Positions 1 through 55,620 of a DNA stretch of 64,000 nt are shown piece after piece (position 1 is the stretch's first letter; each line of letters starts with the position of its first letter). The stretch spans positions 4,120,894-4,184,893 of the forward strand of contig JAHRHZ010000040.1 of NCBI GenBank assembly GCA_024137785.1, in the 5' to 3' direction. Position numbers and translations under genes: made by a program. The notes beneath the pieces were generated by a model. It worked only from the letters and a program-made list of their open reading frames with translations. It searched no databases and was not told the DNA's origin. Source of the stretch: Ginglymostoma cirratum (taxonomy: Eukaryota).

Positions 1-657
1 GAGGCGAAGGAATTGGGAATAGGGGATGGCATTTTTGCAGGAGGGTGGGTGGGAGGAGGTGTATTCCAGGTAGCTGTGGGAGTCAGTGGGCTTGAAATGG
101 ACATCTGTCTCTAGGTGGTTGCCCGAGATGGAGACAGAGAGGTCCAGGAAGGAGAGAGAAGTGTTAGAGATGGTCCAGGTGAACTTCAGGTTGGGGTGGA
201 AGGTGTTGGTGAATTGGATGAACTGTTCGAGCTCCTCGTGGGAGCACGAGGCGGCGCCGATGCAGTCATCAATGTAACGGAGGAAGAGGTGGGGTTTAGG
301 GCCAGTGTAGGTACGGAAGAGGGATTGTTCCACATAACCTACGAAGAGGCAGGCATAGCTTGGACCCATGCGGGTACCCATGGCCACACCCTTTGTTTGT
401 AGGAAGTGGGAGGAATTGAAAGAAAAGTTGTTGAGGGTGAGGACGAGTTCGGCTAGGCGGATGAGGGTGTCGGTGGAGGGGGATTGGTCCGTTCTGCGGG
501 ACAGGAAGAAGCGGAGGGCCTTTAGGCCATCAGCATGGGGAATACAGGTATATAGGGACTGGACGTCCATAGTAAAAATGAGGTGTTGGGGACCTGGGAA
601 TTGGAAGTTCTGGAGGAGGTGGAGGGCATGGGTGGTGTCACGGACGTAGGTAGGGAA
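1..657 (-). mobile_element. Penelope-like element (Neptune-type), 5'-truncated; uninterrupted RT reading frame running off the window start
   Basis: Minus-strand translation PTYVRDTTHAL...FTMDVQSLYTCIPH...GVAMGTRMGPSYACLFVG...FLRYIDDCIG (YIDD at 276-265)...YTSSHPPSCKNAIPYSQFLRL, with no stop codon. Near-identical to the copy at 26064 where the two overlap. Confidence 0.93.
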
Positions 658-1291: not shown

Positions 1292-1530
1292 TATTTATTC
1301 ATTCACAGGATATGGACCTCCCACTGGGTATTACCCATCCCTAATTAGTCTTGAGGAAGTAGCAGCGACTACTTTCCCATTTGGTGACGGTACATCCACA
1401 ATGTTACTGGGGAGGAAGTTCCAGGATTTGTGTCCTGTGACACTAAAGAAACAGCGATATATTTCCAAGTCAGAATGGTGAGTGGGCTGTCGGAGAACTT
1501 GAAGTTGACTGTGTTCGCGTCTACTTGTTT
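1292..1530 (-). mobile_element. 3' end of a CR1/L2-group LINE (family B, tail ...cccacatcccatgaatgaataa)
   Basis: Similar to 34400-34670 (+), 41130-41280 (-) and 50238-50665 (-). Confidence 0.7.
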
Positions 1531-1637
1531 GACTCGAGAGCATATTCTGGTGAGCTCATCTGTCTGGAGTCTGAACTGCAGCAAAAATAATCCTGACCTA
1601 ATCAATCTCTCCTCATATGTCAGTCCTGCCATCCCTG

Positions 1638-2405
1638 AAGAGGAAATGTTGAGGGTCTTAAAATTTATAAAGGTAGATAAATCCCCGGGATCTAATCAGT
1701 TGTGTCCCAGGACATTGTGGGAAACTAGGGAAGAAATTGTGGGGCCCCTAGCAGAGATATTTGAATCATCAACAGCCACAGGTAAGGTGTCGCAAGGCTG
1801 GAGGGTGGACAATGTTATGCCATTATTGAAGAAACGTTGCAAGGAAAAGCCGAGGAACTACAGACCAGTGAGTCTGAAATCAATTGTGGGTAAGTTGTTG
1901 GAGGGGATTCTGAGAGATAGGATTTGCGCGCATTTGGAAAGGCAAGGACTGATTAATAATAGTCATCATGGCTTTGTGCATGGAATATCATGTTTCACAA
2001 ATTTGATTGAGTTTTTTGAGGAGGTAACCAAGAAGACAGATATAAGCAGAGCGGTAGGTGTTGTCTACATGGACTTTAGCAAGACCTTCAACAAGGTTCC
2101 ATATAGTAGACAGGTTAGTAAGGTTAGGTCGCAAGGAATCCAAGGAAAGCTAGCCAATTGGACACAAAATTGGCTTGATTGTAGGAGACAGAGGTGGGTA
2201 GTAGAGGGTTGTTGTTCAGACTGGAGGCCTTTGACGAGCTGTGTGCCATAAGGATTGGTATGGGGTCCACTATTGTTAATCATTTATATAAATGATTTGG
2301 ATGAGAATGTAGGAAGCATGTTTAGTTAGCTTATGGATGCCACCAAAATTGGTGATATAATGGACAGTGAAAAAGGGTCTGTTTCCATGTTCTATGACTC
2401 TGTAT
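1638..2405 (+). mobile_element. CR1 (HER1-type) LINE RT fragment, internally deleted, with 3' tail
   Basis: ORF 1430-2251 contains KSPG, NYRPVSLKSIVGKLLE, HGFVHG, VYMDFSKTFNKVP and WRPLTSCVP. Ends in a ctatgactct-type tail. Confidence 0.9.
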
Positions 2406-3778
2406 CACTAATGAATTATTCGGCCAGATAGAGCATGGACAGAAATGGATTGTCTGTGTTGTAATCTCCCTGCCTCTTCCAGTTATACCTCTTCTTTGTG
2501 CTTCAGTTTCTCATCTTTTCATGATGATGTAGTGGTAATCTTACTGAACTACTATCTGAGGAGCTAAGGTTAAATCATCGGGGGAAACCTTTAAATGAAT
2601 GGCACAGAATGGGCTAAGAAAGCAACGAAATAAAAAAAATGACAAAACAATTGATGCTACATCGAAAGCAGACACCAAGAGGCACAGCTACAGAAGGGAA
2701 ATCAAGGGCAATAGAAGTAATTTGAACTAAGGTCACAGCGCCAGTAATGTCATGAAGCCAGAATAAAGGTAACAAAGGGATAACATAAATGACTAAATAG
2801 ACAGTGTCAAACAGAAGAGGATTGTAGTAACACAATTGAGAAATGAGAATTTAATTAATAATTTATAAAGGCTACAGGTATGAGGCTTTATTTTGGAATG
2901 TCATGGAAAAGGACATTCATTATTTAGTTGTAGTTAAAGATGGAATTAGTGGGAATTTGTCCTTGATATCTTCTTAAAAATAGGAAATCTCTGCTTTTCC
3001 TGCAGGAAGCAGGAAACCTCAGATTGTTTGTAGAAAGTGGGAAACCTCCACTTTGACTGTAAAACATGGAAAAATTCCAAGTGAGCAGCACTGAGCTATA
3101 GCATTGCTATAATATAGAATCTATAACTTAAACAGAAGGAAATTAAATCAATGTAAAGCTTAAAATACTTTCAGACAGCGAAAATAAAACAGCATTGCCT
3201 TTGAAAAGTCAGAATCTACTTAGGAAAGAGATTAAAATAGCATTGAACTAAAAATGTTGGAAGTAAGGAAACTAAATCGTCACATAAGGAAGAAAATGCA
3301 GGAGAAATAATACTTCCTAGCATATTTAATTTCAAGTTGGGCCAAATAAAACACAGGATCAGACATCTTGGAGAGAGCAGATCTTAAGATACTGAATTGT
3401 TTGCAAGCTAGACATTAAGTCACAAGCTAACAAGTTAAGTACATTATTGTTTTCAATAGCATTTGTAACAATGAGAATCAAAACTAAAGTGGGATGATTA
3501 CAGATGCAGGATATGTTCAAGAAGATATTGTCTGGTTCTAAAATCTGCAAAGAAAACCTACTTAATTGAACAGAACATCAGTCTTTCATAAAGAAAATTC
3601 ATAAAATGAATGGTTCCCTAGATAATGGACTGACTACCTCATTTAGCAGGAACAACATTCTCTGTAAAGCACATCCAAGAGATAAATGGTCCTTGAATGT
3701 AGTGAAACATTTCAAACCTTGCAAGGTCAAGAACAGAATCATGTTCAATGGTCCTCAAGATAAACTTCCAAGTCCAAA

Positions 3779-4119
3779 GAGATAAAAGGTACTGCAGATG
3801 CTGGAGAATCCGAGATAACAAGCATGGGGCTGGATGAACACAGCAGGTCAAGCAGCATCATAGGAGCAGGAAAACTTGACGTTTCGGGCCTAAACCCTTC
3901 ATCAGAAATGGGGGAGGGGAAGAGGGTTCTGAAATAAATAGGGAGAGAGGGGGAGGCGGATAGAGGATGGATAGAGGAGGGGATAGGTGGAGAGGAGGCA
4001 GACAAGTCGAAGAGGCGGGGATGGAGCCAGTAAAGGTGAGTGTAGGTAGGGGGGTAGGGAGGAGATAGGTCAGTCCAGGGAGGACGGACAGGTCAAGGGG
4101 GCGGGATGATGTTAGTAGA
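3779..4119 (-). mobile_element. PLE 3' end (young subfamily) with tail and hammerhead
   Basis: Essentially identical to 39122-39460. Begins gagataaaaggtactgcagatgctggag. Confidence 0.92.
3874..3909 (-). ncRNA. Minimal type I hammerhead ribozyme motif
   Basis: Minus strand reads ATTT-CTGATGA-A-GGGT(TTAG)GCCC-GAAA-CG-TC-AAGT: intact core, 4-bp helix II, palindromic ACGT in place of helix III, and 4-bp helix I. Predicted cut after GUC, between 3878 and 3877. Confidence 0.8.
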
Positions 4120-6285: not shown

Positions 6286-6804
6286 CCTTTTCTTCTCTAA
6301 TGTCTCCTAATTTTTAATAGCAAATGGGTCACCTCACAATTTCCTGCATTAAGCTTTGTTTTCCATGTGTGTCCTGATTCTACCAGCCGGTCTTGTTCTC
6401 TTGCAGCTTGTCTCTATTCCCCTCATGATCTACTGTACTCAAATATTTTGTGTGATCTGAAAATGTTGAGATTGTGCCATGTATATCCAAGCTTAGATAA
6501 CTCATATATGTCAAGAAAAGCAGCAGTGGTAACACTATTTCTTGGGGAAGGACACTATATATCTTCCACCAGCCAAAAGCAACTTTCATCATTACTCTCC
6601 ATTTCTTATCACTCAGCCAATATCACCAATATCATTATCTCTGATACAATATCATATCCATACTGTTCCTGTTTCTTTAGTTGCACAGGCTGATAAGTAA
6701 AGAGTAGGTGATGGCCTAGTGGTATTATCACTAGACTTTTAATCCATAGACCCAGATAATGTTCTGAGGATCTGGATTTGAATCCTGCTACAGCAGATGA
6801 TGGT

Positions 6805-7034
6805 GACAACAAGGTGTAGAGCTGGATGAACACAGAAGGCCAAGCAGCATCAGAGGAGCAGGAAAGCTGATGTTTTGGGCCTAGACACTTCTTCAGAAAA
6901 GCCTTCTGAAGAAGGGTCTAGGCCCGAAACGTCAGCTTTCCTGCTCCTCTGATGCTGCTTGACCTGCTGGGTTCATCCAGCTCTACACCTTGTTATCTCA
7001 GATTCTCCAGCATCTGCAGTTCCTACTATCTCTC
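6805..7034 (+). mobile_element. Fold-back (inverted-dimer) PLE mini-element with two hammerhead motifs
   Basis: Arm 6805-6898 is the reverse complement of 6904-6997, with a few mismatches. Unpaired tail 6998-7034. 15-bp TSD acagcagatgatggt at 6790-6804 and 7035-7049. Confidence 0.9.
6904..6936 (+). ncRNA. Minimal hammerhead ribozyme motif
   Basis: TT-CTGAAGA-A-GGGTCTAGGCCC-GAAA-CG-TC-AG. The variable core position 7 is A here. Confidence 0.7.
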
Positions 7035-10000
7035 ACAGCAGATGATGGTACTTCAATTCAAAATTAATCTTGAAATGACTTTAATGATGACCATGAAACC
7101 ATTGCTGATTGTCAGGAAAAACCCATCTGGTTCACTAATGACCTTTAGGGAAGGAAATCTGCCATTCATACCTGGTCTGGCCTACATGTGACTCCAGACC
7201 CACAGCAAAGTGGTTAACTCTTAACTAGCAATAAATAGTGATGCCCACATCCAATGAATAAAAAAAGTCCATTATGCATCACTTTAGCAAGTGTCTTTCC
7301 ACTGTCAATGTAAATCACATCATCTGTATTGCACTCCTCAATGCTCTCTGTTATGTTATCAAAAACTAACCCAAGTTAGTTAAACACACTTTGCCCTTAA
7401 CAAATCAGCAATGACTTTCCTCAATTAGTCCACATTTGCCCAAATTATTCTTTGTAAAAGTTTTCTTCCAAGGAGCATTGAAATAATTGGATTAGTAGGT
7501 GCACTTACTTTGACACCTCTTTTTGGAAGAAAATTCGTATACTGGCAATCCTCCAGTCCTCTGGAATCACCCTTGCAGCTGAAGAAATTGGAAGAATTCA
7601 GCTGGAGTTTCTGCAGTTTTCATTCACTTCCCTCAGTGTCTTTGGATGCATCTCCTTCTTTTGTAAAGGCATCTGAAAAGTAATGATTTAATATCTCAGC
7701 CACTTACCCCATCAACCCCCTTCAGAATCAAATCTAGTCATGCTTTCTCCCACTTTTAACTGGAAACATAGAGATGTAGAAAATTCTCCTGAACACAGTC
7801 CAGAAATTCTGGCCTCTTTCTGTCTTTTACATTGTTATCTCAGTCTATGTCAGGGCAACTAAATTGTCCCCTTATAACTGTCTTTAATTTTTGCATCTGT
7901 CAGTTATTTCCTTACAAATTTGTTTCTTCATTTCTTTCTCTCCAGTTGATAGCCATCAGAATACATTTAATGGGACCGGCTATTGTTTTATAGTTCAAAC
8001 CAAATAGATTCTGTGTCTGACTCCTTTAATATATCTTTTCTACTGCAGGTCTATAATATTCTCCTTAATCATACTGTGACATCTTTTACTTACTTTGCTT
8101 TCTTGTTTTTCCTGGGCATCTTATATTTAGCATCCAGTTTTCAAGCTAGGTCTCCGATATTGCTACAACATCTTATTCGTATGTCGTTATTTGTGCCAGA
8201 AGGTTAAAAGTATTTGTTTCAACTCTCTCTTCCACCTACCCTTTACACGTCTTATCTCTCCTAGATCTGGCCCTAATGTCCCTGGAAATTAAATCCCTCC
8301 CTCCTGCACCATCTCTTCAGTTACACACTCATCTGCTCAGTACTTTTATTTCTATACTCATTTGCACCTGGTTTTCCCATTGCAGCCTGACCAGGTTGCT
8401 GAGGGATCCAAAGATAAAAAAAGATAATGAGCTGCTCCTGGTAAGTTCAGCAGAACCTCTGCATTCCTGGAATTACCAATTTTATTCCAACAATCACTCT
8501 TCTCTGCTCACTCCATGACTGCCTTTAAAAATAATTTGGGGCCCATACCTAAACATCCTTGCTGCAGTACAATGATCAGGACTGGCATGACAACATCACT
8601 GCATTGCACAAACTCATTGAAGTAGATTTTCCAGCTGGGCCCAAAGGGACTGACAGCTTTTTTTAAAAATTGGAGTAGAAAGAAAAGGAGAAGCAGTATT
8701 GGGAATCAGACTAATAAGACAGCTCTGCGGGACAATGAGATCCTTCTGAAAATATCCAGTCACTGAGGTTATAGCTGTGTGCAAATTGGCTGCTAAATCA
8801 ACCTAGAAACAAGAAAAGAACTATAAAGTACACAAACAGACGCAGCAAGTTAAAATGACACCTACAAAAAACAGTCACTGAACTAAGTCTACCACAGTTT
8901 ATATTATAATTGATGCAAATTTCACTCGAAATCATTCACAAATTGCGAACTATGCGTATTTTATACTCTGAAATGACAATTGAAAACACAGAAGATGTAT
9001 GTCTAGTGAGGCTAGTCTGGATGGAAAGAGTGCCTCTTGTGCAACGGAGAATGCATTATTCAGCATCTACAGCAGCAGAAGAATGCACTGTCTTTTGGAT
9101 TGAATGCTTGCATGGTTCAACCATAGGTAAAACACATTTTACTCGTTGCTATGGATCTTGTGTATATCACTCCCCATTTGTCAAAGGTTGGGAATTACAT
9201 CTGAAACATCACACACCATTCTCCTGCTACATCAGATACTGATGAGTTGCTAACAGCCCCCTTACTTACTTCCAAATCTTTGAACATGAGCAACTACAGC
9301 ATCCAGAGGAAGAGGGTCCAAGATTTGAAGATCCCCATTTGAAAAGCAGGTTCTTGCAGCATCAGTATAAAGAAACAGACTTAATGTTTTACATTGGTGA
9401 CCTTACACTAGAACTGGGAAAAGCTCCCAAAGAAAGAGAGGTAATAGATTTTGAATAAGGGGCTGATAGGACAAGGACAAAGGAAATGTCTATAATCGGG
9501 TGAAAAATCAAGAGAGATAAAATGACAGGCACGTCTTTTTTCTCTGTTTCTTTTCTTGCCCCGTCACCTTTCTCTTTAGTCCTGAAAGACTAACTCAGCT
9601 GCCATTCAAACACTTCTCTCTTCTAGCCTGTCATAAATGTCCTTTTGTCTTTGTTCTGCCCATTCCTTGCTCGATGTCTATTATATCTATATTGTTTCCC
9701 AGTTCTAATTAGAAGTCCCAAGTTAGTTTCTCTTCACAAATGCTGCCATTTGCTATTTCATGCTCCCAGTTTGGCTGTTATCTAACAGGCATCTCATAAA
9801 GCAGCCACTGTGAAGGCTGGCAATGTAGTAGAGCCAAGGTTATAACATCCCTCCCTCTACAGCAAGTACCACAGGATGGCAATGAAATGGGAAACCTAAT
9901 GAATAGAAAATGAAATAAAATCATTTCCCATTGGCACAGCTCCAGCATTAAGCACAATCCTGCATCAAACAGAGAACAAATTCCTCCTGGAGGATTTGGC

Positions 10001-10335: not shown

Positions 10336-11397
10336 ATCGGTCCTTTTCAAATTGGCAGGCAGTAACAAGTCAGGTGTCAAAGGAATTGGAGCTGGAACTC
10401 TAGCTATTCACAATATATATTGACAATTTGGGTAAGGGAACAAAATGTAACATCTCCAAGTTTGCAGATGATACCAAGTTGGGTAGGAAGGTGAACTGTG
10501 AAAAGGATGCAGAGGTCCTTCAGCATGATCTGGACAGATTGGGTGAGTGGGCAAATCAATGGCAGATGCAATATAATTTGGATAAATGTGAGGTTATTCA
10601 CTTCGGAAACAAAAACAAGAAAGCACATTACTACCTGAATGGCTGTAAATTGGGAGAAGGGAGAGTGCAGTGGGACCTGGGTGTCCTTGTACTCCAGTCG
10701 CTGAAGGTAAGCATGCAGGTGCAGCAGGCGGCAAAGAAGGCAAATGGTATGTTGGCCTTCATTGCGAGAGGTTTTGAGTACGGGAACAGGGATATGTTGT
10801 TTCAGTTGTACAGGGTCTTGTTGAGACTAAGCCTGGAATATTATGTGTGGTTTTGGTCTCCTTTTCTGAGGAAGGATGCTCTTGCTCTCAAGGGAATGCA
10901 GCGAAGGTTTACCAGGCTGATTCTGGGGATAGTGGGTCAGACGTATAAGGAGCGATTGACTAGATTGGGATTATGTTCATTATTGTTCAGATGACTGAGG
11001 GGGGATCTCATAGAGACTCATAAAATTCTAACAGGACTGGACAGGGTAAATGCAGGGAGAATGTTCCTGATGGTGGGTGTGTCCAGAATCAGGGGTCACA
11101 GTATGAGGATTTGGGGTAGACGATTTAGGTCAGAGATGAGAAGACATTTCTTCACCCAAAGAGTGGTGAGCCTGTGGAATTCATTACCATGGGAAGTAGT
11201 TAATGCCAAAACATTGAATGTATTCAAGAGGTGACTAGATATAGCACTTGGGGCGAATGGGATCAAAGGTCATGGGGAGAAAGCAGGTATAGGTTATTGA
11301 GTTGGGCAATTAGCCATGATCGTGAAGAATGGCTGAGCAGGTTCAAAGGGCCAAATGGCCTCCTTCTGCTCCTATCTTCTAAGTTTCTGTGTTTCTA
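10336..11397 (+). mobile_element. CR1 LINE 3' fragment (RT C-terminus and tail)
   Basis: ORF 10428-10994: ISKFADDTKLG, WQMQYNLDKCEVIHFG, DLGVLV, KKANGMLAFI. Tail cctatcttctaagtttct. Confidence 0.93.
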
Positions 11398-21669: not shown

Positions 21670-21757
21670 GAGATAACAAGGTGTAGAGCTGGATGAACAC
21701 AGCAGGCCAAGCAGCATCAGTGAAGCAGGAAAGCTGACGTTTTGGGCCTAGACCCTT
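21670..21757 (-). mobile_element. Short PLE 3' fragment truncated inside the hammerhead
   Basis: gagataacaaggtgtag...gggcctagaccctt. Duplication ccttatgag at 21664-21672 and 21754-21762 overlaps both element ends. Confidence 0.85.
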
Positions 21758-22744: not shown

Positions 22745-22960
22745 GAGGAGCCAGTGTTAGACTTGGGTGGACTAGGTCAAAAGTCACATGACACCAGGTT
22801 GTAGTCCAACACGTTTATTTGAAATCACAAGCTTTTGAAGCGCTGCTCATTCGTCAGGTGACGAAGGTGATGTTCATCTGACAAAGGGGCAGCACTCCGA
22901 AAGTTTGTGATTTCAAATAAACCTGTTGGACTATAACCTGGTGTCATGTGACTTTTGACC
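22745..22960 (-). mobile_element. Fold-back mini-element of a second family with two decayed hammerhead motifs
   Basis: 22775-22861 is the imperfect reverse complement of 22874-22960, with a ~30-nt extra tail at 22745-22774. Arm consensus is CAC-CTGACGA-A-GGAGC(AGC)GCTCC-GAAA-GC-TT-GTG. Confidence 0.8.
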
Positions 22961-23088
22961 ATATGGTTACTGTTAGGGGACACTGCACCTGAGATTTCTG
23001 AAAGCTCCACTTTTTCTCAGCTCCACCAAGCAAATATGGCTGTTGGGATATGTTTACCATAAACTTTAGCTGCTCTGAATTGTCAAGC

Positions 23089-24404: not shown

Positions 24405-25029
24405 GAGATAACAAGGCGTGGGGCTGGATGAACACAGCAGGCCAAGCAGCATCAGAGGAGCAGGAAAGCTTGACGTTTCGGGCCTAGACCCTTCATCAGA
24501 AATGGGGGAGGGGAAGAGGGTTCTGAAATAAATAGGGAGAGAGGGGGAGGTGGATAGAGGATGGATAGAGGAGAGGATAGGTGGAGAGGAGGCAGACAAC
24601 TCGAAGAGGCGGGGATGGAGCCAGTAAAAGTGAGTGTAGGTGGGGAGGTAGGGAGGAGATAGGTCAGTCCAGGGAGGACGGACAGGTCAAGGGGGCGGGA
24701 TGATGTTAGTAGATAGGAGATGGGGGTGGGGCTTGAGGTGGGAGGAGGGCATAGTTGAGAGGAAAAACAGGTTAGGGAGGTCGAAATGAACTGGGCTGGT
24801 TTTGGAATGCGGTTGGGGGAGGGGAGATTTTGAAGCTTGTGAAATCCAATTTGATACCATTGGGCTGCAGGGTTCCCAGGCTGAATATGATTTGCTGTTC
24901 CTGCAGCCTTTGGGTGGCATCACTGTGGCATTGCAGGAGGCCCAGGATGGACATGTCGTCTGAGGAATGGGAGGGGGAGTTGAAATTGTTCGCGACTGGG
25001 AGGTGCAGTTGTTTGTTGCGAACTGAGCG
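24405..25029 (-). mobile_element. PLE 3' fragment (GIY-YIG C-terminus and 3' UTR), tail-less; hammerhead at 24468-24503
   Basis: RSVRNKQLHLPVANNFNSPSHS...GTLQPNGI. gtgttga is duplicated at 24400-24406 and 25029-25035. Confidence 0.92.
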
Positions 25030-26064
25030 TGTTGATCCCTTCACACATGAACTAGCCTATCTACTTTGTCCATCTTGCCTGGTCAGAGGAGATTAATTAC
25101 CATCAGTTAAGGTTGGAGTGGTTAATTTTATGATTTGCTGGCTAAAGGTTAAACCTCCAACTTGTTTAGTTTGCATTGTTTGGATAGTTTTTAAATAGCT
25201 AGTTGGTAATTGGCTTAACCCATCACTGCTGAATTTCACAGAAGGCCTTAGAAATAAATCCCAAACACAGAGTTAAACTTCCTCAAACCATTTTTGGGTT
25301 AGAACAGAAACAGAGGCAAATTAATGGAAAGTAAGTTGTGATTCAAGACTTTTTTCCCTAAATTAGTTAAAAAGAAGATTTTGTTCCCATTTACTAAATT
25401 CTTTAATCAATTTACATTTGATACGCAGCCTTTGTTCTATTTTTTCCTGCACAGCTTTTACATGAGAAAGAAATTAATTGCAGCACTAAACTGAAGAAAA
25501 AATTAAATATGCAAAAATCAGAAGGTTAAAAAAAGGCACTGATTTAACTTACATTGGTTGGATTCTCTTCAAAAGATGACCTTGAAACATAATCACTCTA
25601 ATGAGTTAAAATATTCATTTTCACAAATGAAACAGTAATCAAGTCAGTTTCAAAAAGCACCATTAATGAGCTTTTCCTTTGATTGGATATGTCCTGATAT
25701 ATTAATCTACAGGAGGTACCTTCTAGCTGAGACCACCCCATGCCTGCTCATTAGCTGACCTAGCAAGAGACTAATTTGAATGTTTTTGATAAAAATTTCA
25801 AGGAATTTTTACTTTAGCAGGATTTCAGCCAATACCAGTAACTTCTGTACAAGTAAACTGTACTTTTTGTAAAGTTAATTAATAGAATTTGAGGATCATA
25901 CACTGAAAAGTATTGTCATGCAGAATATCTAAAAGCAGCTCCGCCTCAGCATAATCATTGATGCACAGAACAGTAAATTTTGTTGGCAGACGGCTTATTG
26001 ACAATAAACGATTTGAGACTGCTATCTGATTAGACCATTACAGGACAACCAGAGCAATTTACAC

Positions 26065-27168
26065 TGCATCAGCGCCACCTCGTGCTCCCACGAGGGGTTC
26101 GAACAGTTCATCCACTTCACCAACACCTTCCACCCCAACCTGAAGTTCACCTGGACCATCTCCAACACTTTTCTTTCCTTCCTGGACCTCTCTGTCTCCA
26201 TCTCGGGCAACCACCTAGAAACCGATGTCCATTTCAAGCCCACTGACTCCCACAGCTACCTGGAATACACCTCCTCCCACCCACCCTCCTGCAAAAATGC
26301 CATCCCCTATTCCCAATTCCTTCGCCTCCGCTGCATCTGCTCCCAGGATGAGACATTCCACTCCCGTACATCTCAAATGTCCTCATTCTTCAAGGACCGC
26401 AACTTTCCCCCCACAGTGGTCGAGAACGCCCTCGACCGTGTCTCCCGCATTTCCCGGAACACATCCCTCACGCCCCGTCCCCGCAACAATAACCAAAAAA
26501 GAATCCCCCTCGTCCTCACATACCACCCCACCAACCTCTGGATCCAACGCATCATCCTCCGACACTTCCGCCATCTGCAATCAGACCCCACCACCAAAGA
26601 CATTTTTCCCTCCCCACCCTTATCTGCCTACCGGAGGGACCACTCCCTCCGCAACTCCCTTGTCCGTTCCACACTCCCCTCCAGCCCCACCACACCCGGC
26701 ACTTTTCCTTGTAACCGCAGGAAGTGCTACACCTGCCCCCACACCTCCTCCCTCACCCCAATCCCAGGCCCCAAGAAGACTTTCCACATCAGGCAGATGT
26801 TCACCTGCACATCTGCCAATGTGGTATACTGCATCTGCTGTACCCGTTGTGGCTTCCTCTACATCGGGGAAACTAAGGGGAGGCTTGGGGACCGCTTTGC
26901 AGAACACCTGCGCTCAGTTCGCAACAAACAACTGCACCTCCCAGTCGTGAAACATTTCAACTCCGCCTCCCATTCCTCAGATGACATGTCTATCCTGGGG
27001 CTCCTGCAATGCCACAGTGATGCCACCCGAAGGCTGCAGGAACAGCAAATCATATTCAGCCTGGGAACCCTACAGCCCAATGGCATCAATGTGGATTTCA
27101 CAAGCTTCAAAATCTCCCCTCCCCCAACCGCATCCCAAAACCAGCCCAGCTCATCTCGACCTCCCTAA
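26065..27168 (+). CDS. PLE polyprotein C-terminal part: RT thumb, Cys linker and GIY-YIG endonuclease (5'-truncated, no native start)
   Basis: The frame is open from 26065 (CISATSCSHE...FLDLSVSI...) through track ORF 26377-27168, which contains CNRRKCYTC, NVVYCICCTRCGFLYIGET, RFAEH and LQPNGINVD. Confidence 0.9.
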   Translation, partial: CISATSCSHEGFEQFIHFTNTFHPNLKFTWTISNTFLSFLDLSVSISGNHLETDVHFKPTDSHSYLEYTSSHPPSCKNAIPYSQFLRLRCICSQDETFHSRTSQMSSFFKDRNFPPTVVENALDRVSRISRNTSLTPRPRNNNQKRIPLVLTYHPTNLWIQRIILRHFRHLQSDPTTKDIFPSPPLSAYRRDHSLRNSLVRSTLPSSPTTPGTFPCNRRKCYTCPHTSSLTPIPGPKKTFHIRQMFTCTSANVVYCICCTRCGFLYIGETKGRLGDRFAEHLRSVRNKQLHLPVVKHFNSASHSSDDMSILGLLQCHSDATRRLQEQQIIFSLGTLQPNGINVDFTSFKISPPPTASQNQPSSSRPP

Positions 27169-27453
27169 CCTGTTTTTCCTCTCACCTATCCCCTCCTCCC
27201 ACCTATCCCCTCCTCCCACCTCAAGCCACACCCCCATCTCCTATCTACCAACATCATCCCGCCCCCTTGACCTGTCCGTCCTCCCTGGACTGACCTATCT
27301 CCTCCCTACCCCCCTACCTATACTCACCTTTACTGGCTCCATCCCCGCCTCTACGACTTGTCTGCCTCCTCTCCACCTATCCTCTCCTCTATCCATCCTC
27401 TATCCACCTCCCCCTCTCTCCCTATTTATTTCAGAACCCTCTTCCCCTCCCCC

Positions 27454-27489
27454 ATTTCTGATGAAGGGTCTAGGCCCGAAATGTCAAGT
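27454..27489 (+). ncRNA. Hammerhead motif with CpG-decayed helix III (ACGT to ATGT)
   Basis: ATTT-CTGATGA-A-GGGTCTAGGCCC-GAAA-TG-TC-AAGT, about 290 nt downstream of the ORF stop. Confidence 0.7.
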
Positions 27490-27964
27490 TTTCCTGCTCC
27501 TATGATGCTGCTTGACCTGCTGTGTTCATCCAGCCCCAAGCTTGTTATCTCCAATTTACAATGGGACTAGGTAGATAGACTGCGCTGATGGCAACATGTT
27601 TACACTTCTACTATCTTCTACCCTGTCCTGTAGAATGTATGTTGGCAGGGGAGCGCTTAATCATGCTGGAGGATGACAAGTGGGGATCGCGCTATCTGCC
27701 TAACTCCTCCTGATTCAGTTCATTCCGTCCTGCCACTAGTAGAGGCCCTTAGGTGGGTAATTAACTATCCTATTAAGTGCCCCATATCATCGCCACTCAA
27801 CATCAACACAACAGTGGGTGGTGGGTCTGCCATATTTGGAGCATGATGAGCAAACCTTTATATGTTTGCTTGCAGGCTCCCAGGGTGGATGGTGCTGCTA
27901 GGGTTGAAAGAGGAGGAGGGGTGTTTCTTACTTAAAGGCACTCAGCTCCTGCACCTGCTGCAAA

Positions 27965-36754: not shown

Positions 36755-39121
36755 TTGTGGATAGGATAATAAAATCAAAGTTTTGTTAATGATAACTTGT
36801 TACATGGCTTCAGATACTTTTATAGATGGTTTAGAAAATGTCTTCAATCATATCACCTTTAATCTTTTTTGCTGTTGGAGCATATATTCTTCAGCCTTCT
36901 GTTTGTGAAAACCACTTTCCAATTAGAAAATGTGCAATGCAGTTCACTATCATAGTCTATGCATTCCATATACACTTATTTCGTAGAATGTGACCCTTGT
37001 TTATCCTAGCATCTGAAATATTGCCTCAAGATGAGCATAGTGTCCAGTCAAATTCATTGTTGCTGTTGCGTCATTGCCTTAGTGTTCATGGATTGTTTCA
37101 ATACTTTGTAAGGCTGATGGAATTAGTTTAGGTCTCAAAGCCAAGTTTGCACTGTCATCTGTGGCTCAAGTAATCTGGGAAAAAATGGACGGTTTTCAAA
37201 TGAGAGCATCAACTGTTCATTGGGAGTAACAATGAAGTTGGACCTCAATGTGAGTTACAGCTGTCAAAACAGGGGATGAAGTAAAAAGAACACCTTGTAG
37301 CTTTAACCATTACTCTTGAAGTTAGTAAGGTACTTACTGGACAGAAGTTCTAATAGAGTGGCAATAAAAATAAATGCAAATAATCTTTCCAAGATCAAAC
37401 CTATAGTGTAGCAATATCAAACCCAATGATTTACAGAATCCAGTAACAGAATTATCGTTATAATTCAGAAGTTGTGAGTGCAGTGAGACGATCCAGTGCA
37501 GTGAGACAACCACTACTTAAAACAGTTTATATGTTTCGAACTCTATGACATTCTTACTATTCATCAAAAGACCAAAAATCAAAATTGAGTTATCTCCTAA
37601 ATGAAATTATTTTATGACCTCAATCTGACATTCAGTTACCAACCTGTTGCTCTTTCCATGTTCCTACGCAGGAATATTGTTTGATGTTAAAAAAAATCAA
37701 AAATACCTGTCTTTGGTGAATTATGGTTTTAACGTCTGATTTGAATACCTGGAAAAGTCTTGAATATTTATGACAAATGGAAGAATTTATATACTTCAGT
37801 ATGCATAAGTGTGACTTTTTTAGATTGCAATTCCTAAAATAATTGTATTTTTAACTTAGACAACATACATTTGTAATCAAAAGAGATACTGACCCTTTTC
37901 ATAAATTTCCAGGTACCGGAGGGTCACTTAGCACAAGTTGTGAAAAAAACAGATTGTGCCTGAAGACTTAATTATCTATATTCTCTAAGATACATCTGTT
38001 AGCAATATGGGATTATACATGTCAAAATGACAGATAGGAGTTGAATTTGTGCAAGTGTGTCTAACCAGGATCATCTACATATCAGACATTTGAAAATCTC
38101 GGACGTGCTGACATTAGAAATATAAGGTTGCAATTAATTATTGCTAGGATGAATCATAATTTCCTTTCACCTTAAGTACACCTCAGAAAGATCTGTAACT
38201 GTTAGCTTCACTTTTGCTTAAACAAAAAAAAGTACCAGGCAAAAAAAAACTTTTCCTTTACATTTGCAGCTAATTACTGATTTCCAATTAATAGGCTTCA
38301 GCATTTAACCTTTGGAGGATGAGATCTTTCCAAGTTAGTTTGCATATATTAATATGCAGATGGTAATTATACCTCCAGAGAAGGTACGTTCTGCATGGTG
38401 ACTAAAGGCCACATCTTTAATTTCTTTTTAATTTGAAGCTGCAGCTTCAGGTCTATCACTGTAACATGCAACTCTCGATGATTATTATTTAAAAAGACAA
38501 ATTCTGTTTTTTGGTCAGACAACCAAGATTGCTGCTTTAAAGCAACAGTGTTCTTTGTTGGCTGTTGTAAGTCTCCATTTTCACAGTTGCAAAGTAAACA
38601 TCCTCTGTTGTACCAAACTGTTATCACATTACTTAGATAATTTAATTCACCAGAGAAAAGTAAACTGCATCAAATATTTTGGCTGTTTATTTGGAAGGTA
38701 TCCAGCAAGACTGTATATTATTCTAAGTAGTTTAGAATTTTCTGTATTTGGAATGATTACATAATCATTATATTAATTATTACATAATACTAAATCAACT
38801 TAAAACATTTTATAGACATAAAGTATACTTGTACAAAATAAATGGATAATTGGCCTCAACAAATGCTTTGGCTGGACTAAATTGATAAAGCCGCAAGCTG
38901 TACACCACTGCAGATTTAATCTTCAGGTGTTTAACGGTAACCTAATGTTACAAAATAATTCAAACATGTTAAAAATTAAAAAAATTAGATTGATAAATTA
39001 TTGGTGCTAGAAAATACATTACTTAATGTGAATTAGATGACTTTCGTGCATTTTAGATGAAACTTTAGAATTGTTGGTCTTTGTTCTTTTACAAATTTCA
39101 GGACAAATATCAAATATTACT

Positions 39122-40047
39122 GAGATAAAAGGTACTGCAGATGCTGGAGAATCCGAGATAACAAGCATGGGGCTGGATGAACACAGCAGGTCAAGCAGCA
39201 TCATAGGAGCAGGAAAACTTGACGTTTCGGGCCTAAACCCTTCATCAGAAATGGGGGAGGGGAAGAGGGTTCTGAAATAAATAGGGAGAGAGGGGGAGGC
39301 GGATAGAGGATGGATAGAGGAGAGGATAGGTGGAGAGGAGGCAGACAAGTCGAAGAGGCGGGGATGGAGCCAGGAAAGGTGAGGGTAGGTAGGGGGGTAG
39401 GGAGGAGATAGGTCAGTCCAGGGAGGACGGACAGGTTAAGGGGGCGGGAGGATGTTAGTTGATAGGAGATGGGGGTGTGGCTTGAGGTGTGAGGAAAAAC
39501 AGGTTAGGGAGGTGGAGATGAGCTGGGCTGGTTTTGGGATGCGGTTGGGGGAGGGGAGATTTTGAAGCTTGTGAAATCCACATTGATGCCATTGGGCTGC
39601 AGGGTTCCCAGGCTGAATATGATTTGCTGTTCCTGCAGCCTTCGGGTGGCGTCACTGTGGCATTGCAGGAGGCCCAGGATGGACATGTCATCTGAGGAAT
39701 GGGAGGGGGAGTTGAAATGGTTCGCGACTGGGAGGTGCAGTTGTTTGTTGCGAACTGAGCGCAGGTGTTCTGCAAAGCGGTCCCCAAGCCTCCGCTTGGT
39801 TTCCCCGATGTAGAGGAGGCCACAACGGGTACAGCGGATGCAGTATACCACATTGGCAGATGTGCAGGTGAACCTCTGCCTGATGTGGAAAGTCTTCTTG
39901 GGGCCTGGGATTGGGGTGAGGGAGGAGGTGTGGGGGCAGGTGTAGCACTTCCTGCGGTTACAGGGAAAAGTGCCGGGTGTGGTGGGGCTGGAGGGGAGTG
40001 TGGAGCGGACAAGGGAGTCACGGAGGGAGTGGTCCCTCCGGAAGGCA
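39122..40047 (-). mobile_element. 5'-truncated PLE (GIY-YIG, 3' UTR and tail); intact hammerhead at 39217-39252
   Basis: ORF 39504-39851 reads VYCIRCTRCGLLYIGETKRRLGDRFAEH. 3' end is nearly identical to 3779-4119. Confidence 0.94.
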
Positions 40048-42994
40048 AATAGACATCTGCCCCCGGGCTTGCATTTTACCCAATCTGTCCCAGACAGCCT
40101 TTTCCTGGTTCAGTTGCAGCCAATGGTTGCTGGAGTCCCAGAAGTTCAGTGAATTTAATCCAATGTCATTTCCACAACTTCTGCCTACAGAGGGTTTTAA
40201 GTGCAGGGTCTGTGCATAAACTGATGGGGATTTTTGTCTCACCTTACATTACTTAAAAATAATTAACTTTGAGGAGAAGGCCATTAAGTCATTGAAGCTC
40301 ATTCTTATAATATTGTAACACACCAACTACACAACTGCTCCTTGAATTCCTGAAATGCTTTTGTATCATCAATAATATATGAGAATATTTTAAATATTTA
40401 ACACACTGTGGATAAAAACAATCTTCCCAATAGCTGTTCTAAAATAACAGAGTCATCCCGAGCTAGTTAGTATTTCAGGTTGTTAAGTTTCCATAAGAAT
40501 GTTGTGATGAAGAGTTAGAAATATTGTGGGCAGTATTTCCCCTCCCTGTTGTGAAGTGAGCAATAGCAAGGAAGTTGGGAAAATACAGAGTGAATGAAGA
40601 AAATCAGAGCCATAACAACTGAAATTCTTTTTGCTGTTGTCCCCTCAAACCTTAAATGGTGGCTCCAGAATCTTGTTACCTTGCATTTGCCCCTCTTTAA
40701 AGCGCCTTATGTATATAGCAATGGTTACTTGCCTTCAATAAATATTTTGGCTGGTCTAAATTGAGAAAAATGCAAGAAGGTTTGATTTTTTTCTAATTCT
40801 GTAAGAAAGTAGATGGAGTATTTTGTTGACATGCAAATCAAAACAGATAGCCAGCAGCTGTAGCTTGCCGACTATTTGCCCTGGCCATCATCTAACTGCT
40901 TCTTCACAACCATATCCCAGCATGGTCCATGGCCAACATCCTTCTTGACCCAATGTCCATGCATGTTGGCATCAGCAAATTACCAGCCTCAACATGTAAC
41001 TGTGCCTGCTCTCAGACCAACTCAGACACCTCTTCAGCCCTTTAGCACTTTACTTTGAAGGCAAGGGACACCAATATCTTCCATACTTGTGCCAAATCGC
41101 TTTGCGTGCAGCGACACACATGCTTCTTGTGCATTTCGTTGTGTGTATTTGTTCAATGGATGTGGGCATTGCCAGCTCGGTCAGCACCTATGGCCAAACC
41201 TTATTGCTCTGGAGACAGTGGTGAGCTGCCTTCTTGAAATGCTGCAGTGCTGAGGTGTAAGAACACCCATAGCTGTATAGGATCATCTTATGGCTCTCAA
41301 CTTGCTTTTTTAGTTCTCAGTCACTTTGGTACTTAATTGGAGGCTGCCAGCCTCTGTTTACTTCACATTATTTCCTTATTGTGGACTCACTGAATTCAGC
41401 ACTGACGTATGGACTGTTAGCGTTCTTTGCATACAGGTCTTTACTGTTCATTTCTGGGCTGCCAGGCTTTGTGGCCTGCATTGCCTTTGAGTGCAGAGGG
41501 AGTGACAGGCAATTTGTGATGGTTGAGAGCACTGAATAGGTAAAAAGGTGGCTATGTTATCGTGTGGTACTGTGCTACATAATCATCACGTCTGTAGCAT
41601 GTGTCAGTAGTTTACATTGTAAACACAACACTTGTGCTTCAAAATGTTGGCCATGTGTGAATCTCTTAGGGACACAATCCTTAATGTGTGAAGTGGAGCT
41701 ACAGTCAGTCAGAAGTCACTCAAATGACTTCTTCAATTCAAGTCCAGAACTTTAGCCATGATTGGTCAGGTGCTTGCTCTTACTGGAAACCTACCAGGAT
41801 TTGTGTTCTTGCAGTCATGGGATTGGGCTACAGTCAGTCCTGTAGGACAAACGCTACCATTCTGGGGATTACAGATGCATCAGTCAGTGTGTAATGGAGC
41901 AATCAAACTGAGGCTTTATTGGAGGGGTGAGACAGGAAGAGGGATGGAGGGGGAAGAGGGATGGAGAGAGAGGAGCAGTAGAGAAAAAGTTCCTGCAATG
42001 AGCTAAGGAGAGAGATTGAGTAGATGGAAGAACAATTAGTGGTGATGCATGACCAGGAAAATTATGGTGGGGACAATGATTAATTTGGGAGGATGAGGTT
42101 GGTGAGCGTTGTTGAGCGGAGATGCTGGATGCTACACTGCAAGTTGTAGTCCATGAACCTTAATGCAATATATGTGCTTTGAAAGAGTTAGAGTGAGTGG
42201 TGGCACTGAGTGTGAGATATCAGAAAATGGTGGCACTGGGGAAAAGCTGCCCAAGATACTGGTTGCTTATCTGAGGAGGTTAAAAGCAGAAGATAACATG
42301 AGAAAAGTAGTTCTGAGCCATGGCAGAGTAGGTACCACGAATTTCACTCAAGAAAACATTTTAACTGAAAATGGAGAAGTCTAAAACTTTCTCTCTCAAT
42401 TGATGCTGGCTAGTCTGGTCAGCATTTTTAGCACTTTTTTTTGTTTTATTCTCTGCAAGCGCAGTACTTTTGTTTTGTTTTTGTAGAGATCTAGAATACT
42501 GGTTAATACAAAGGATCTCAAATCCCATTGAGAACAGACGGATAATCATATTCACCTATTATAGGAAATCTTGGAGAAAACTCCAAATACTGTAACAGTG
42601 GGACAATGTTGCTCCAACTGAGAATTACTAATTGGAGGAATGAGGCCTGTTCAGTCCAAAGAGAGGCAAAAGAAAACAATACCTGTCAATCCTTTCAGAG
42701 TTTGTTTTCCTTATAATTAACTTGATGGAGAAACTATTAACTAACAAGTCTACTTATTGGCTTTATGTAGGCTTTCAAAGGATTACATATAGTCTGTGGG
42801 ACAGAAACAAGTCATTTGGACCAGCCAGTCCATGCTATGTTTGTAATTCATTTGATCTTCTTACTATCTTTTTGAATCTAAATCCATTATTAGAACTCTC
42901 TATTCACTTCATCCTCATGAACTTCATTTAGCCTCCCCTTAATTATATGTGCAGTATTCACTTCAATCTTTTGGTAACAAGAGCCACGTTTACA

Positions 42995-44904: not shown

Positions 44905-45345
44905 CTTATTCACAAGATGTGGGCATTGCTGGCTCGGCCAACATTTATTGCCCATCCCTAATTGTCAGAGAGTAGTTAACAGTCATTCACATTCCTGTGG
45001 ATCGGGTGTGATGTAGGTCAAATAATGTGAGCACAACAAATTCCTTCCCTAAAGGACATTAATGAATCAGAAATCAGAACCCGAAACGTCAACTTTCCTG
45101 CTCGTCTGATGCTGCCTGGCCAGCTGTGTTCCTCCAGCTCCACACTGTGTTATCAATTAATCAGTTGGGTTTTTCTAACAATTGACAATGATTTCATGGT
45201 CATCATTAGACTCTTACTTCCAGATTTTTATTCAATTCAATAATTTTATTGAATGCTATGGAAAGTTTCAAATCCAGGTCACCAGAACATTACCTGGTTC
45301 TCTGGATTAAAGGTCTAGTGATAATATTATTAGATCATCACTTCC
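44905..45345 (-). mobile_element. tRNA-derived SINE interrupted by a PLE fragment (45080-45154, + strand)
   Basis: Same SINE as 6706. The insert cccgaaacgtcaac...tgttatc is flanked by aatgaatcag (45061-45070) and aattaatcag (45155-45164). Confidence 0.78.
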
Positions 45346-53899: not shown

Positions 53900-54022
53900 G
53901 AGATAGTAGGAACTGCAGATGCTGGACAATCTGAGATAACAAGATGTAGAGCTGGAAGAACACAGCAGGCCAAGCAGCATCAGACGAGCAGGAAGGCTGA
54001 CGTTTCGGGTCTAGACCCTTCT
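53900..54022 (-). mobile_element. Short PLE 3' fragment truncated in the hammerhead core, inserted in a Deu-domain-type SINE tail
   Basis: gagatagtaggaactgcag...gacgtttcgggtctagacccttct. Flanks read attacaatagcaactaca... and gtgaagcactttgag...gctatgtaaatg. Confidence 0.82.
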
Positions 54023-54096: not shown

Positions 54097-55620
54097 GCAT
54101 GTCTGGAGAAACTCAGTCAGTTTAACATCATCTGTGGAGAGAGAAAACTAGAGTTAACACTTCAAGTCCAGTGACCCTTTGTCAGAACTGAAAACAGCAG
54201 AGAAATGGTGACATTTATGCTGATGACAGGAGGTGAGGTTGGACTGGGTAAAGGAGTGAGTCAAACAAATGGAGATGGTGCCGAGAGACAGGGAGAAAAA
54301 AGGGAAGCAGACAAATGGATTACTGATAATAAGGTGGGAGAGAGATGCACACTGAATGGATGTTAATGGGAAGTATGTGCTGGCACCAACTCATACAGAA
54401 CAGGATTTTGGGATGTGGAGGTAGGTAACAAACATAGAGGAAGGTGTTCATTCTCAGAAATTGTTAACCTCAATGTTGAATACTGAGGCTTGTTAGGTAT
54501 CTAGGGGAAGATGGGGTATTGTTTCTCCAGCTTGTGTTAAGCTTTTCTGGAGCATTGCAGCAGACCTGAGACAGAAATGTTGGTGTGGGAACATGCTGGT
54601 GTGTTGAAAGGGCAGGCAACTGGAAGCTCAAGGTTCATTTTTACAGACAGAGTGGAGGTGCTGCACAAAATGTTCACCCAGTCTTCACTTTGTCTCTCCA
54701 GTATACAGAAGACCACCTGGGAAGACTAAATTGAATGAGGTGCAGATAAATTGCTACTTCACCTGGAAGGCGTGTATGGGGCCTTGGATAGTGTGAAAGG
54801 AGGAGGAAAACAGATAGGTACTACATCTTCTGCAATTGCATGGGAAAGTAATGTGGGAATGTGAGAAGGTGTTGGGAGTGGAGGAAGTACAGACCAGAGT
54901 GTCCCAGACAGAACGATCCCAGCAGAAGGCTGACAAAGGAAGGGAGAAGCATATGTTACAGAGATAGTAGGAACTGCTGATGCATTTCTGGAGAAGGGTC
55001 TAGACCCGAGGCATTCCTGCTCCTGTGATGCTGCTTGGCCTGCTGTGTTAATCCAGCTCTACACCTTGTTATCTCTGGAGAAGAATATGTGTTTGGTGGT
55101 GGCCCCACACTGGTGGAAAATGGAAGCTTATGATCCTTTGAAGCGGAGGCTGCTGGTCAGTGAGGGCTAGGGGTATCCTATCATTGTTGTGGGAGGAAAG
55201 GGAATGGGTGAGGGCAGAAGTGGGGGAAATGGATCAGATATGGCTGAGGGGCTCTGTCAACCACAGGAGCAGAGAATCCTCAGTCAAGGAAACAGGTGAG
55301 CTTTTCTCAGATTTCCTGCAAAAGGTGCAATCATCTGAACAGATTCTACGAAGATGGAGAAACTGGGAGAATGGAATGGAGTCTCTACAGGAAGCAGGAT
55401 GTGAGGACGTACAGTTGAGGTAACTGTGTGAGTCGGTGTGTTCGTAATGGATATTGGTGGACAGCCTATCACCAGGAGCAGAAACAGAGAGGTCGAGAAA
55501 GGGAATGGAGCAGTCAGTGACGAACCATATGAAGGAGTGAGCTGGGTAGAATTGGAAGCAAAATTGATAAAGTTTTCCAATTCCAAGCAAGAGAGGGAGC
55601 CAGCATCAACAATATCATCT
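54097..55620 (-). mobile_element. Older, frameshifted PLE of a third family; decayed hammerhead at 54153-54188
   Basis: IPFLDLSVS...TDSHSYLNCTSSHPASCRDSIPFSQFLHLRRICS and TFPCNCRRCSTY. The 3' end reads GTT-CTGACAA-A-GGGTC(ACTG)GACTT-GAAG-TG-TT-AAC. Confidence 0.85.
54957..55076. mobile_element. Internally deleted fold-back PLE mini-element nested in the older PLE
   Basis: A minus-orientation tail (gagatagtaggaactgc) is joined to a plus-orientation arm (atttctggagaagggtctagacccga...ttgttatctc). 14-bp TSD ggagaagc/aatatgt at 54943-54956 and 55077-55090. Confidence 0.8.

What the first reader, a model, noticed from the sequence alone, without database searches (positions are those of the whole stretch)
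3874..3909. Minimal hammerhead ribozyme in the 3' region of a shark Neptune-type PLE, with structure-preserving variation across copies
Seen: the core CUGA(U/A)GA...GAAA..UC is present at 3874, 6904, 24468, 27454, 39217, 47574 and 47616. Helix II varies as GGGTTTAGGCCC, GGGTCTAGGCCC and GGGTCTAGACCC (~54007), always keeping the pairing. Position 7 varies U/A as the core allows. There is an extra nucleotide after A9, and helix III is reduced to the palindrome ACGT. Known: minimal PLE hammerheads with a palindromic helix III have been described and are thought to cleave as dimers. Inference: it processes tandem PLE transcripts after GUC. Activity cannot be shown from sequence.
Basis: partly seen in the sequence, partly recalled or inferred. 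Interest (0 to 1): 0.7.

Follow-up and report, generated by a model that had tools for sequence, protein, structure and literature searches.

The report
Minimal hammerhead opening shark Penelope RNA
This 36-letter motif is an already known kind of tiny self-cutting-RNA fold carried by a very abundant Penelope-type jumping gene of a shark; it likely forms the very start of the gene's capped RNA, and many genomic copies appear to have been made from RNA that had not been cut there, so cutting would more likely remove the cap than release the template that is copied.

Summary
The motif is real (minus strand, C3 at 3905) and all seven listed cores are present. It is a minimal type I hammerhead in the pseudo-LTR of a GIY-YIG Penelope-like element with a Neptune-type linker, a described kind (PMC4209133). 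It has at least 36,000 exact read-through copies in this genome. Within the family, helix II changes are one-sided. Two-sided changes appear only between families, in helix I (20 of 20 pairs, 1 of 120 permutations) and helix III. '3' region' is half right: the same motif lies 166 nt upstream of the ORF's ATG. Copies begin sharply 1-6 nt before C3 (22 of 86 unbiased 5' ends), often after a G (27 of 44), which suggests a capped start. Only 3 of 86 begin at the GUC cut, although genome-wide counts show a 2-3-fold local excess there. So 'processes tandem transcripts into templates' is weakly supported; a cut would likely remove a 32-nt capped leader. Activity is untested. The scan reached the same reading before, on this and other genomes. 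New member of a known kind.

The parts
3874..3909 (-). Minimal type I hammerhead: helix I 5' strand 3909-3906, C3 at 3905, bulged A, 4-bp helix II with UUAG loop, GAAA, self-complementary ACGU, C17 at 3878; predicted cut between 3878 and 3877
3778..3873 (-). Leader downstream of the cut site, including the ~34-nt PLE 'tail' between the two preferred 3' ends
   Evidence: tail as defined in PMC8557442 and PMC11167929
3910..4119 (-). End of the element's 3' UTR; the copy is 5'-truncated at about 4119 (about 340 bp in all, no ORF, no target-site duplication seen)
26063..27551 (+). 5'-truncated PLE copy: RT thumb, CX4CxxC linker, GIY-YIG endonuclease (frame 26017-27168), 3' UTR, hammerhead (C3 27458, helix III decayed to ATGT), short end
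39121..40109 (-). 5'-truncated PLE copy with linker, GIY-YIG and intact hammerhead (C3 39248); low end approximate
24405..25029 (-). 5'-truncated PLE copy with hammerhead (C3 24499)
6801..7030 (.). Head-to-head fold-back of two leader-only copies (older subfamily, N7 = A); C3 at 6896(-, decayed) and 6906(+); both start 2-3 nt before C3
47516..47745 (.). Head-to-head fold-back of two leader-only copies; C3 at 47605(-) and 47620(+); both start 3 nt before C3
54983..55075 (+). Leader-only copy starting at C(-5) right after a G; core decayed
53912..54021 (-).
21670..21757 (-). Leader-only copy truncated inside the core
45080..45154 (+). Leader-only copy truncated inside helix II

Best explanation
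The motif is a minimal type I hammerhead fold in the pseudo-LTR of an abundant Penelope-like retrotransposon, and it likely forms the first 36 nucleotides of the element's capped RNA, where it is predicted to cut only as a protein-assisted dimer and would thereby remove a 32-nt capped leader rather than release the template that gets copied. SHOWN: one copy of the motif lies 166 nt before the ATG and another after the ORF, 3,577 nt apart in a full-length unit; insertions keep the motif whole; their 3' ends fall at two sites 34 nt apart downstream of the cut site; their 5' ends pile up 1-6 nt before C3, often after a G that the joined partner does not template. INFERRED: Pol II starts at the A (or the C before it) 4-5 nt before C3, in an initiator-like CCATTTC, so helix I's 5' strand is the RNA's first four bases. 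The RT primes internally in the tail, as shown for the anole Poseidon element. If it primes at the 3' repeat it gives ordinary 5'-truncated copies such as 3778-4119. If it primes at the 5' repeat it runs off the cap after 100-135 nt, copies the cap as an extra base, and joins to target DNA, to the opposite strand (fold-backs) or to an internal point of element RNA (composites). Cleavage is a minority fate: the lone fold is predicted inactive, and a cut needs a second copy (the other repeat of the same long RNA, or another RNA) and probably the element's protein. The copy at 3874-3909 is a truncated relic, unlikely to cut on its own.
For: Position. Unbiased 5' ends (copies found by the tail, not the core): 22 of 86 in 6 nt at -6..-1, against 12 of 86 in the 90 nt upstream and 3 of 86 at the cut site; 12 further copies censored by N or an edge. 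Genome-wide junction counts: -4 from C3 4,772; A9 2,156; cut site 1,044; 7 nt before it 327; about 9 nt after it 383. G before the start: 2,765 G against 2,343 A+T; 62 of the first 100 rows against 14 of the first 100 (hand counts); 27 of 44 junctions in loci not selected on G, p=2e-6 against 0.27; in 10 of 17 such junctions with a forward element partner the adjacent G is not the partner's next base (hand count). Of 30 loci holding the ORF start, 13 end at -5..0 and 2 read through into 3' UTR (hand count). 10 of 11 extended such loci are composites with a second leader copy. Fold under selection: helix I 20 of 20 pairs in 5 families, 1 of 120 permutations; 92% of cells paired, 2 helix I pairs with two-sided change, 3 of 500 shuffles as high; helix III ACGU versus AGCU in another family; family-majority H17 always C or U. 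Lone 36-mer: mispaired fold -9.3 against hammerhead fold -3.4 kcal/mol. PMC11167929: the anole element's hammerhead cuts only with protein, is not needed for insertion, and uncut RNA is the main substrate. PMC4209133: monomer inactive, dimer weakly active.
Against: No cap or start site was observed directly. RNA run X20 is in effect unstranded, mostly reflects copies inside host transcripts, and showed no start or end pile-up. Part of the G excess is explainable by GA/GAT microhomology inside the element (duplications such as ATTTCTG-ATTTCTG), and several target-duplication-resolved short copies have no extra G (L262, L270, L274). The cut site does carry about 3 times the junctions of its two nearest controls; after removing 5 indels and 8 palindrome fold-backs, 27 of 40 inspected remain, so some RNA may be cut and still copied. 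The 35,979 read-through copies fit a re-ligated circle as well as an uncut linear RNA. Within the family the core is not clearly more conserved than the tail. Families D and E lack an obvious initiator at the same place and were not linked to a PLE ORF here. The cap-G signature and the initiator consensus are recalled, not taken from a call.
Confidence: 0.6

Rival explanations
1. One reading: the dimeric hammerhead cuts tandem transcripts after GUC into unit-length RNA, perhaps circularised, which is the main template for new insertions.
For: Two motifs per long RNA, 3,577 nt apart. 35,979 read-through copies whose junction a circle would regenerate. About 3-fold local excess of G-poor 5' junctions at the cut site. 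Proposed, as tentative, in PMC4209133.
Against: A circle has no stop 4 nt before C3, yet 13 of the 19 ORF-start loci that reach the core end there and 2 read through. A cut linear RNA should give starts at AAG: 3 of 86 (p=0.11 against local background). In PMC11167929, core mutants insert normally in vitro and no RNA-seq reads start or end at the site.
Confidence: 0.17
2. The pile-up before C3 is an RT stop or strand-switch hot spot caused by structure, the upstream C-rich tract or microhomology, not a transcription start; the hammerhead's place in the RNA is then unknown.
For: Many junctions there are fold-backs at the near-palindrome around GAAAT/ATTTC or short duplications. Junctions stay elevated to about +10 inside the core (12 of 86; 2,156 at A9). 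PMC3846280 reads such head-to-head junctions as self-priming, possibly on an antisense template.
Against: G that the partner does not template in 10 of 17 forward-partner junctions. The same start zone in a diverged family: 4 of 32 family B copies scored as read-through. Initiator-like sequence at the same offset in families A, B and F.
Confidence: 0.13
3. The motif is catalytically dead and is kept as a core-promoter element (initiator plus a downstream ACGT) or a protein-binding hairpin.
For: Predicted inactive monomer; a 12-bp helix II homoduplex (-20.4 kcal/mol) beats the helix III dimer (-13.3). D. virilis Penelope has an internal promoter with RGACGTGY (PMC2377424). Naiads thrive without a hammerhead (PMC8557442).
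Against: All catalytic positions are kept across families whose flanks and helices differ; helix I covaries across the cut site; ACGU becomes AGCU in family D, keeping the palindrome but not the sequence. The homologous motif of PMC11167929 does cut, with C3/G8 rescue.
Confidence: 0.1

Closest known systems
Minimal hammerheads (min-HHR) of metazoan PLE pLTRs, including Xena, Poseidon and Neptune elements of fishes (Cervera and De la Pena 2014, PMC4209133; parts 1-2 of 4 read, supplements not read)
   Same: Type I core, extra nucleotide between A9 and 10.1, G10.1-C11.1, 4-5-bp helix I, palindromic 15.2-16.2 with no real helix III, sits in both pLTRs, thousands of solo copies from truncated elements, several families per genome, opposite-strand pairs.
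   Different: Helix II is 4 bp here (7-8 bp in Schistosoma) and close to a 12-nt palindrome. Sharks are not named in the text read. That paper does not place the motif at a capped RNA start in the parts read.
Poseidon element of Anolis carolinensis, PAc (Frangieh et al. 2024, PMC11167929; parts 1-2 of 4 read, supplements not read)
   Same: Hammerhead at the pLTR-ORF junction; two 3' ends defining a 30-40-nt tail downstream of it; uncut RNA as template.
   Different: In PAc the ATG is inside the ribozyme and the tail is coding; here C3 is 166 nt before the ATG and the tail is non-coding. PAc belongs to the Penelope/Poseidon clade, which is described without the Zn-finger linker seen here.
Neptune/Nematis EN+ PLEs (Craig et al. 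2021, PMC8557442; passages read)
   Same: Single ORF with RT, CX2-5CxxC linker and C-terminal GIY-YIG; partial tandems, inverted 5' copies, tail, heavy 5' truncation.
   Different: No phylogenetic placement was done here, so Neptune and Nematis are not separated.
Animal non-LTR retrozymes (bioRxiv 10.64898/2026.07.22.740005; part 1 of 5 and passages read)
   Same: Type I hammerhead derived from PLE pLTRs; reported from one chondrichthyan genome.
   Different: Retrozymes are head-to-tail tandem arrays; no tandem array of this motif occurs in the window, and the short copies are solo, fold-back or composite.

Membership tests
Minimal type I hammerhead of PLEs | Core C3 U4 G5 A6 N7 G8 A9 / G12 A13 A14 A15.1 / U16.1 H17 | tested here: met
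Minimal type I hammerhead of PLEs | Unpaired nucleotide after A9 and G10.1-C11.1 closing helix II | tested here: met
Minimal type I hammerhead of PLEs | Short helix I across the cut site, supported by covariation | tested here: met
   4 of 4 pairs in the young subfamily, 3 of 4 in two older ones
Minimal type I hammerhead of PLEs | Palindromic 15.1-16.1 in place of helix III | tested here: met
   ACGU in families A, B, E, F (with CpG decay); AGCU in D
Minimal type I hammerhead of PLEs | Located in both pLTRs of a PLE | tested here: met
   L312: two copies 3,577 nt apart flanking the ORF
Minimal type I hammerhead of PLEs | Site-specific self-cleavage as a dimer | not testable with these tools
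   Only indirect: a 2-3-fold local excess of junctions at the site
Rfam hammerhead families (canonical, full helix III) | Match to a curated covariance model | tested here: not met
   no hammerhead family among 10 matches at E<=10
EN+ Penelope-like element | One ORF with RT and C-terminal GIY-YIG | tested here: met
   GIY-YIG above the Pfam cut-off; RVT_1 E=3e-5, below the cut-off; DKG and YIDD motifs; homologs carry PF00078 and PF01541. The copies translated are broken by frameshifts or stops.
EN+ Penelope-like element | pLTRs, inverted 5' copies, 30-40-nt tail | tested here: met
   (3' ends peak at +94 and +128 from C3)
Neptune clade | CX2-5CxxC linker between RT and EN (shared with Nematis) | tested here: met
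   CNRRKCYTC; 87 of the 90 listed homologs that show a YIGET-type motif have it
Neptune clade | RT phylogeny grouping with named Neptune elements | not tested
   No named reference proteins among the 120 homologs listed
Non-LTR retrozyme | Tandem repeat with a hammerhead in at least two consecutive units | tested here: not met
   (window only)

The most novel reading that the evidence does not exclude
In these shark PLEs the hammerhead is a cap-removal switch: the RNA begins with helix I, and protein-assisted pairing of two copies cuts off a 32-nt capped leader, ending translation once enough element protein is bound, while capped uncut RNA is the main template. The genome records both states: G-tipped strong-stop copies and a small G-less class starting at the cut.
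Probability: 0.25. Interest if true: 0.62.

Novelty: new member of a known kind. Interest (0 to 1): 0.3.

Why it matters
The motif is ordinary for PLEs. What is useful is that the role of PLE hammerheads is still called unclear (PMC8557442), and a family with tens of thousands of young copies lets insertion ends be counted at single-base resolution. The counts argue against cut or circular RNA as the main template and point to a ribozyme at the capped start, which turns the open question into a simple 5'-end mapping and mutant test. Six paper searches listed no paper whose title or abstract start states this; subscription papers and unread supplements could. Earlier reports of this scan state it for this and other genomes.

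Tried and rejected
Rfam scan: only microRNA-type and other chance hits on the fold-backs, no hammerhead family. PDB sequence search with the RT frame: 0 hits. First pair count is discarded: my structure string was one column off and MAFFT misaligned the D and E rows; repeated on 9 of the 13 rows, with D and E handled by script. First boundary script used a reference containing N; repeated. 'Core more conserved than flanks within the family': not shown; core positions have no shared non-CpG variant, but most tail positions have none either. A predicted pairing of the core with the distal tail has no matching change in the older subfamily by eye; dropped. Pairs of inverted copies about 450 bp apart looked like a mini-element but flank runs of N in 2 of 2 loci fetched; rejected, and they double-count some A-type junctions. 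Loss of C17 in 3 of 40 cut-site loci was considered as a scar of re-ligation; too rare to tell from ordinary indels. Expression: no RNA holder listed; X20 is uninformative on starts or strand and X21 laid only 13 reads. One search failed on a term format and was re-sent.

Full report
OBSERVATION. The sequence at 3874-3909 is, on the minus strand, AUUU CUGAUGA A GGGU UUAG GCCC GAAA CG UC AAGU. All seven listed cores are present; four more copies (21670, 45080, 53912, 54983) have lost or damaged the core, including the one cited at ~54007. A strict descriptor finds 44 hits in 607,463 non-N bases (100 evenly spaced 10-kb stretches plus the window) and none in 5 Markov controls. Rfam has no model that matches it. 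Genome-wide, 35,979 copies match the read-through form exactly, a lower bound for the family.

THE ELEMENT. The window copies at 26063-27551 and 39121-40109 encode an RT thumb, a CX4CxxC linker and a GIY-YIG endonuclease. The linker marks the Neptune and Nematis clades (PMC8557442, passages). The best named homologs are shark proteins at 72-86% identity, which fits 'shark'; no named Neptune reference was available, so the clade rests on the linker alone. Walking upstream through the genome showed that the tail behind the motif continues into a 5' UTR and the ATG. In locus L312 two copies of the motif flank the ORF 3,577 nt apart, and C3 lies 166 nt before the ATG. The motif therefore belongs to the pLTR, and the '3' region' copy is the repeat of the 5' leader.

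IS THE FOLD UNDER SELECTION? Within the family the evidence is modest. In 98 copies found by the tail alone, shared variants fall on N7, three loop positions and one U-G/U-A pair of helix II, and not on the core, apart from CpG decay at C11.1-G12 and in ACGT; but most tail positions are equally invariant (the reads agree). Between families it is strong. The genome holds several other families with the same core; B, F and G lie behind divergent PLE endonuclease hits in 2 of 46, 1 of 5 and 1 of 13 tail matches, D and E in 0 of 17 and 0 of 4. Helix I, which was not in the descriptor, pairs in 20 of 20 positions over five families, reached by 1 of 120 permutations; with two older subfamilies added it is 26 of 28, 18 of 5,040. 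The families are related, so these are not strict probabilities. On 9 natural copies of A, B and F, chosen by me for intact cores, 92% of cells pair, two helix I pairs change on both sides and no helix II pair does. Helix III is ACGU except in family D, AGCU. This matches the min-HHR definition of PMC4209133, which already reports such motifs in Neptune elements of fishes.

WHERE COPIES END. 3' ends peak at +94 and +128 from C3, about 66 and 100 nt past the predicted cut: the PLE tail, explained by internal RT initiation in PMC11167929. Of 86 uncensored 5' ends, 22 lie at -6..-1, 12 at 0..+10, 3 at +11..+25, 3 at the cut site (+26..+31), 7 further down and 39 further upstream. Whole-genome exact patterns that demand two non-element bases before a position give 4,772 at -4, 2,156 at A9, 327 at A13, 1,044 at the cut site and 383 about nine bases after it; the patterns differ slightly in length and degeneracy, and the A9 count may include point mutants. 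Forty cut-site loci were inspected (hand count): 5 indels, 8 fold-backs at the local palindrome, 8 other inverted partners, 4 forward element partners, 13 genomic flanks, 2 unresolved. Of 20 control loci, 11 were true junctions. The excess at the cut is thus about 2-3-fold. It may be a trace of real cleavage, or of A-rich microhomology and added A's; the unbiased sample is too small to tell (p=0.11).

THE EXTRA G. Before the -4 A the genome has 2,765 G against 2,343 A+T, while G is 21% of the sampled DNA. G is 62 of the first 100 rows at -4 and 14 of the first 100 at the cut site (hand counts). In loci not selected on G, 27 of 44 junctions have G next to the start once up to two C's are allowed. 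Where the partner is forward element sequence, the G is not the partner's next base in 10 of 17 (hand count). Against: duplications of the first 7-10 bases can give G by GA/GAT microhomology, and L262, L270 and L274 join without G. An untemplated 5' G as the mark of a reverse-transcribed cap, and the initiator consensus that CCATTTC, TCAGTT and CCAGTC fit, are recalled knowledge; two searches listed no paper on this for PLEs. D. virilis Penelope has an internal TATA-less promoter (PMC2377424, passages), and a rotifer pLTR has Inr-like motifs (PMC3846280, passages).

LINEAR OR CIRCULAR TEMPLATE. Of 30 loci that hold the ORF start, 13 end at -5..0, 4 inside the core, 9 below the cut, 2 are hidden by N and 2 read through into 3' UTR (hand count). 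A circle would not stop at -4. Ten of 11 extended loci are composites: leader, broken-off ORF, then a second leader copy, several with G at the seam. The same seams appear in RNA reads (table 5c), which come from transcribed genomic copies and are not independent. The 35,979 read-through copies cannot tell an uncut 3' repeat from a re-ligated circle.

CAN IT CUT? The lone 36-mer prefers a fold in which UGAUG pairs with CGUCA (-9.3 against -3.4 kcal/mol), and two copies prefer a 12-bp helix II duplex (-20.4) to the helix III dimer (-13.3) (predictions without tertiary contacts). This fits the published low, dimer-dependent activity (PMC4209133) and the protein dependence of the anole ribozyme (PMC11167929). 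A cut in the 5' copy would remove 32 nt with the cap. RNA runs gave no start or end signal; this is not evidence either way.

VERDICT. A new member of a known kind. Confidence that this is a PLE min-HHR is about 0.95; in the full working model about 0.6. I formed the capped-start reading before consulting earlier findings (notes); the scan holds 106 fitting notes for this genome and the same cap reading for other genomes, which are not independent support. Unread supplements of PMC4209133 (alignment, accession table) and PMC11167929 (end maps), and the closed supplements of the bioRxiv paper, may already list shark motifs or 5' ends. PMC6155905 was read as passages only and adds nothing on sharks.

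Noticed in passing
window 22820-22990: Head-to-head pair of a second hammerhead-bearing family (D; helix III AGCU, helix I CAC/GUG), both cores decayed; not linked to a PLE ORF in the loci held.
   Followed up: partly
window 55234-55658 (-) and 1-266 (-): An older, diverged PLE thumb fragment, and the RT end of another young copy running off the window edge.
   Followed up: partly
window 1388-2251, 10404-10994, 57584-58006: LINE-type RT fragments (RVT_1 hits for the first two), probably CR1/L2-like (family name recalled).
   Followed up: no
window 6700-6800 and 7030-7260: The fold-back at 6801-7030 sits inside what looks like a SINE-type repeat, with ACAGCAGATGATGGT on both sides (likely a target duplication plus a few extra bases).
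   Followed up: no
L268 and L280 (G000 C1:3238200-3239200, C3:5414100-5415100): Fold-back junctions appear on both sides of ~400-nt runs of N, so exact-pattern counts double-count some events.
   Followed up: yes
L301-L311: Composite insertions in which a leader copy is joined to a random point of the ORF, often through G, AG or AAG that the ORF does not template.
   Followed up: partly
L312:4900-5320: The ORF's N-terminal part holds a variable Thr/Ala/Asp/Pro-rich repeat (TADAD-like units) that differs in length between copies.
   Followed up: no
L214:8908-8951, L071:6351-6394: A further family (E) with a 6-bp helix II, bulged U and helix I GCA/UGC; PLE link not shown.
   Followed up: partly
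   Followed up: partly
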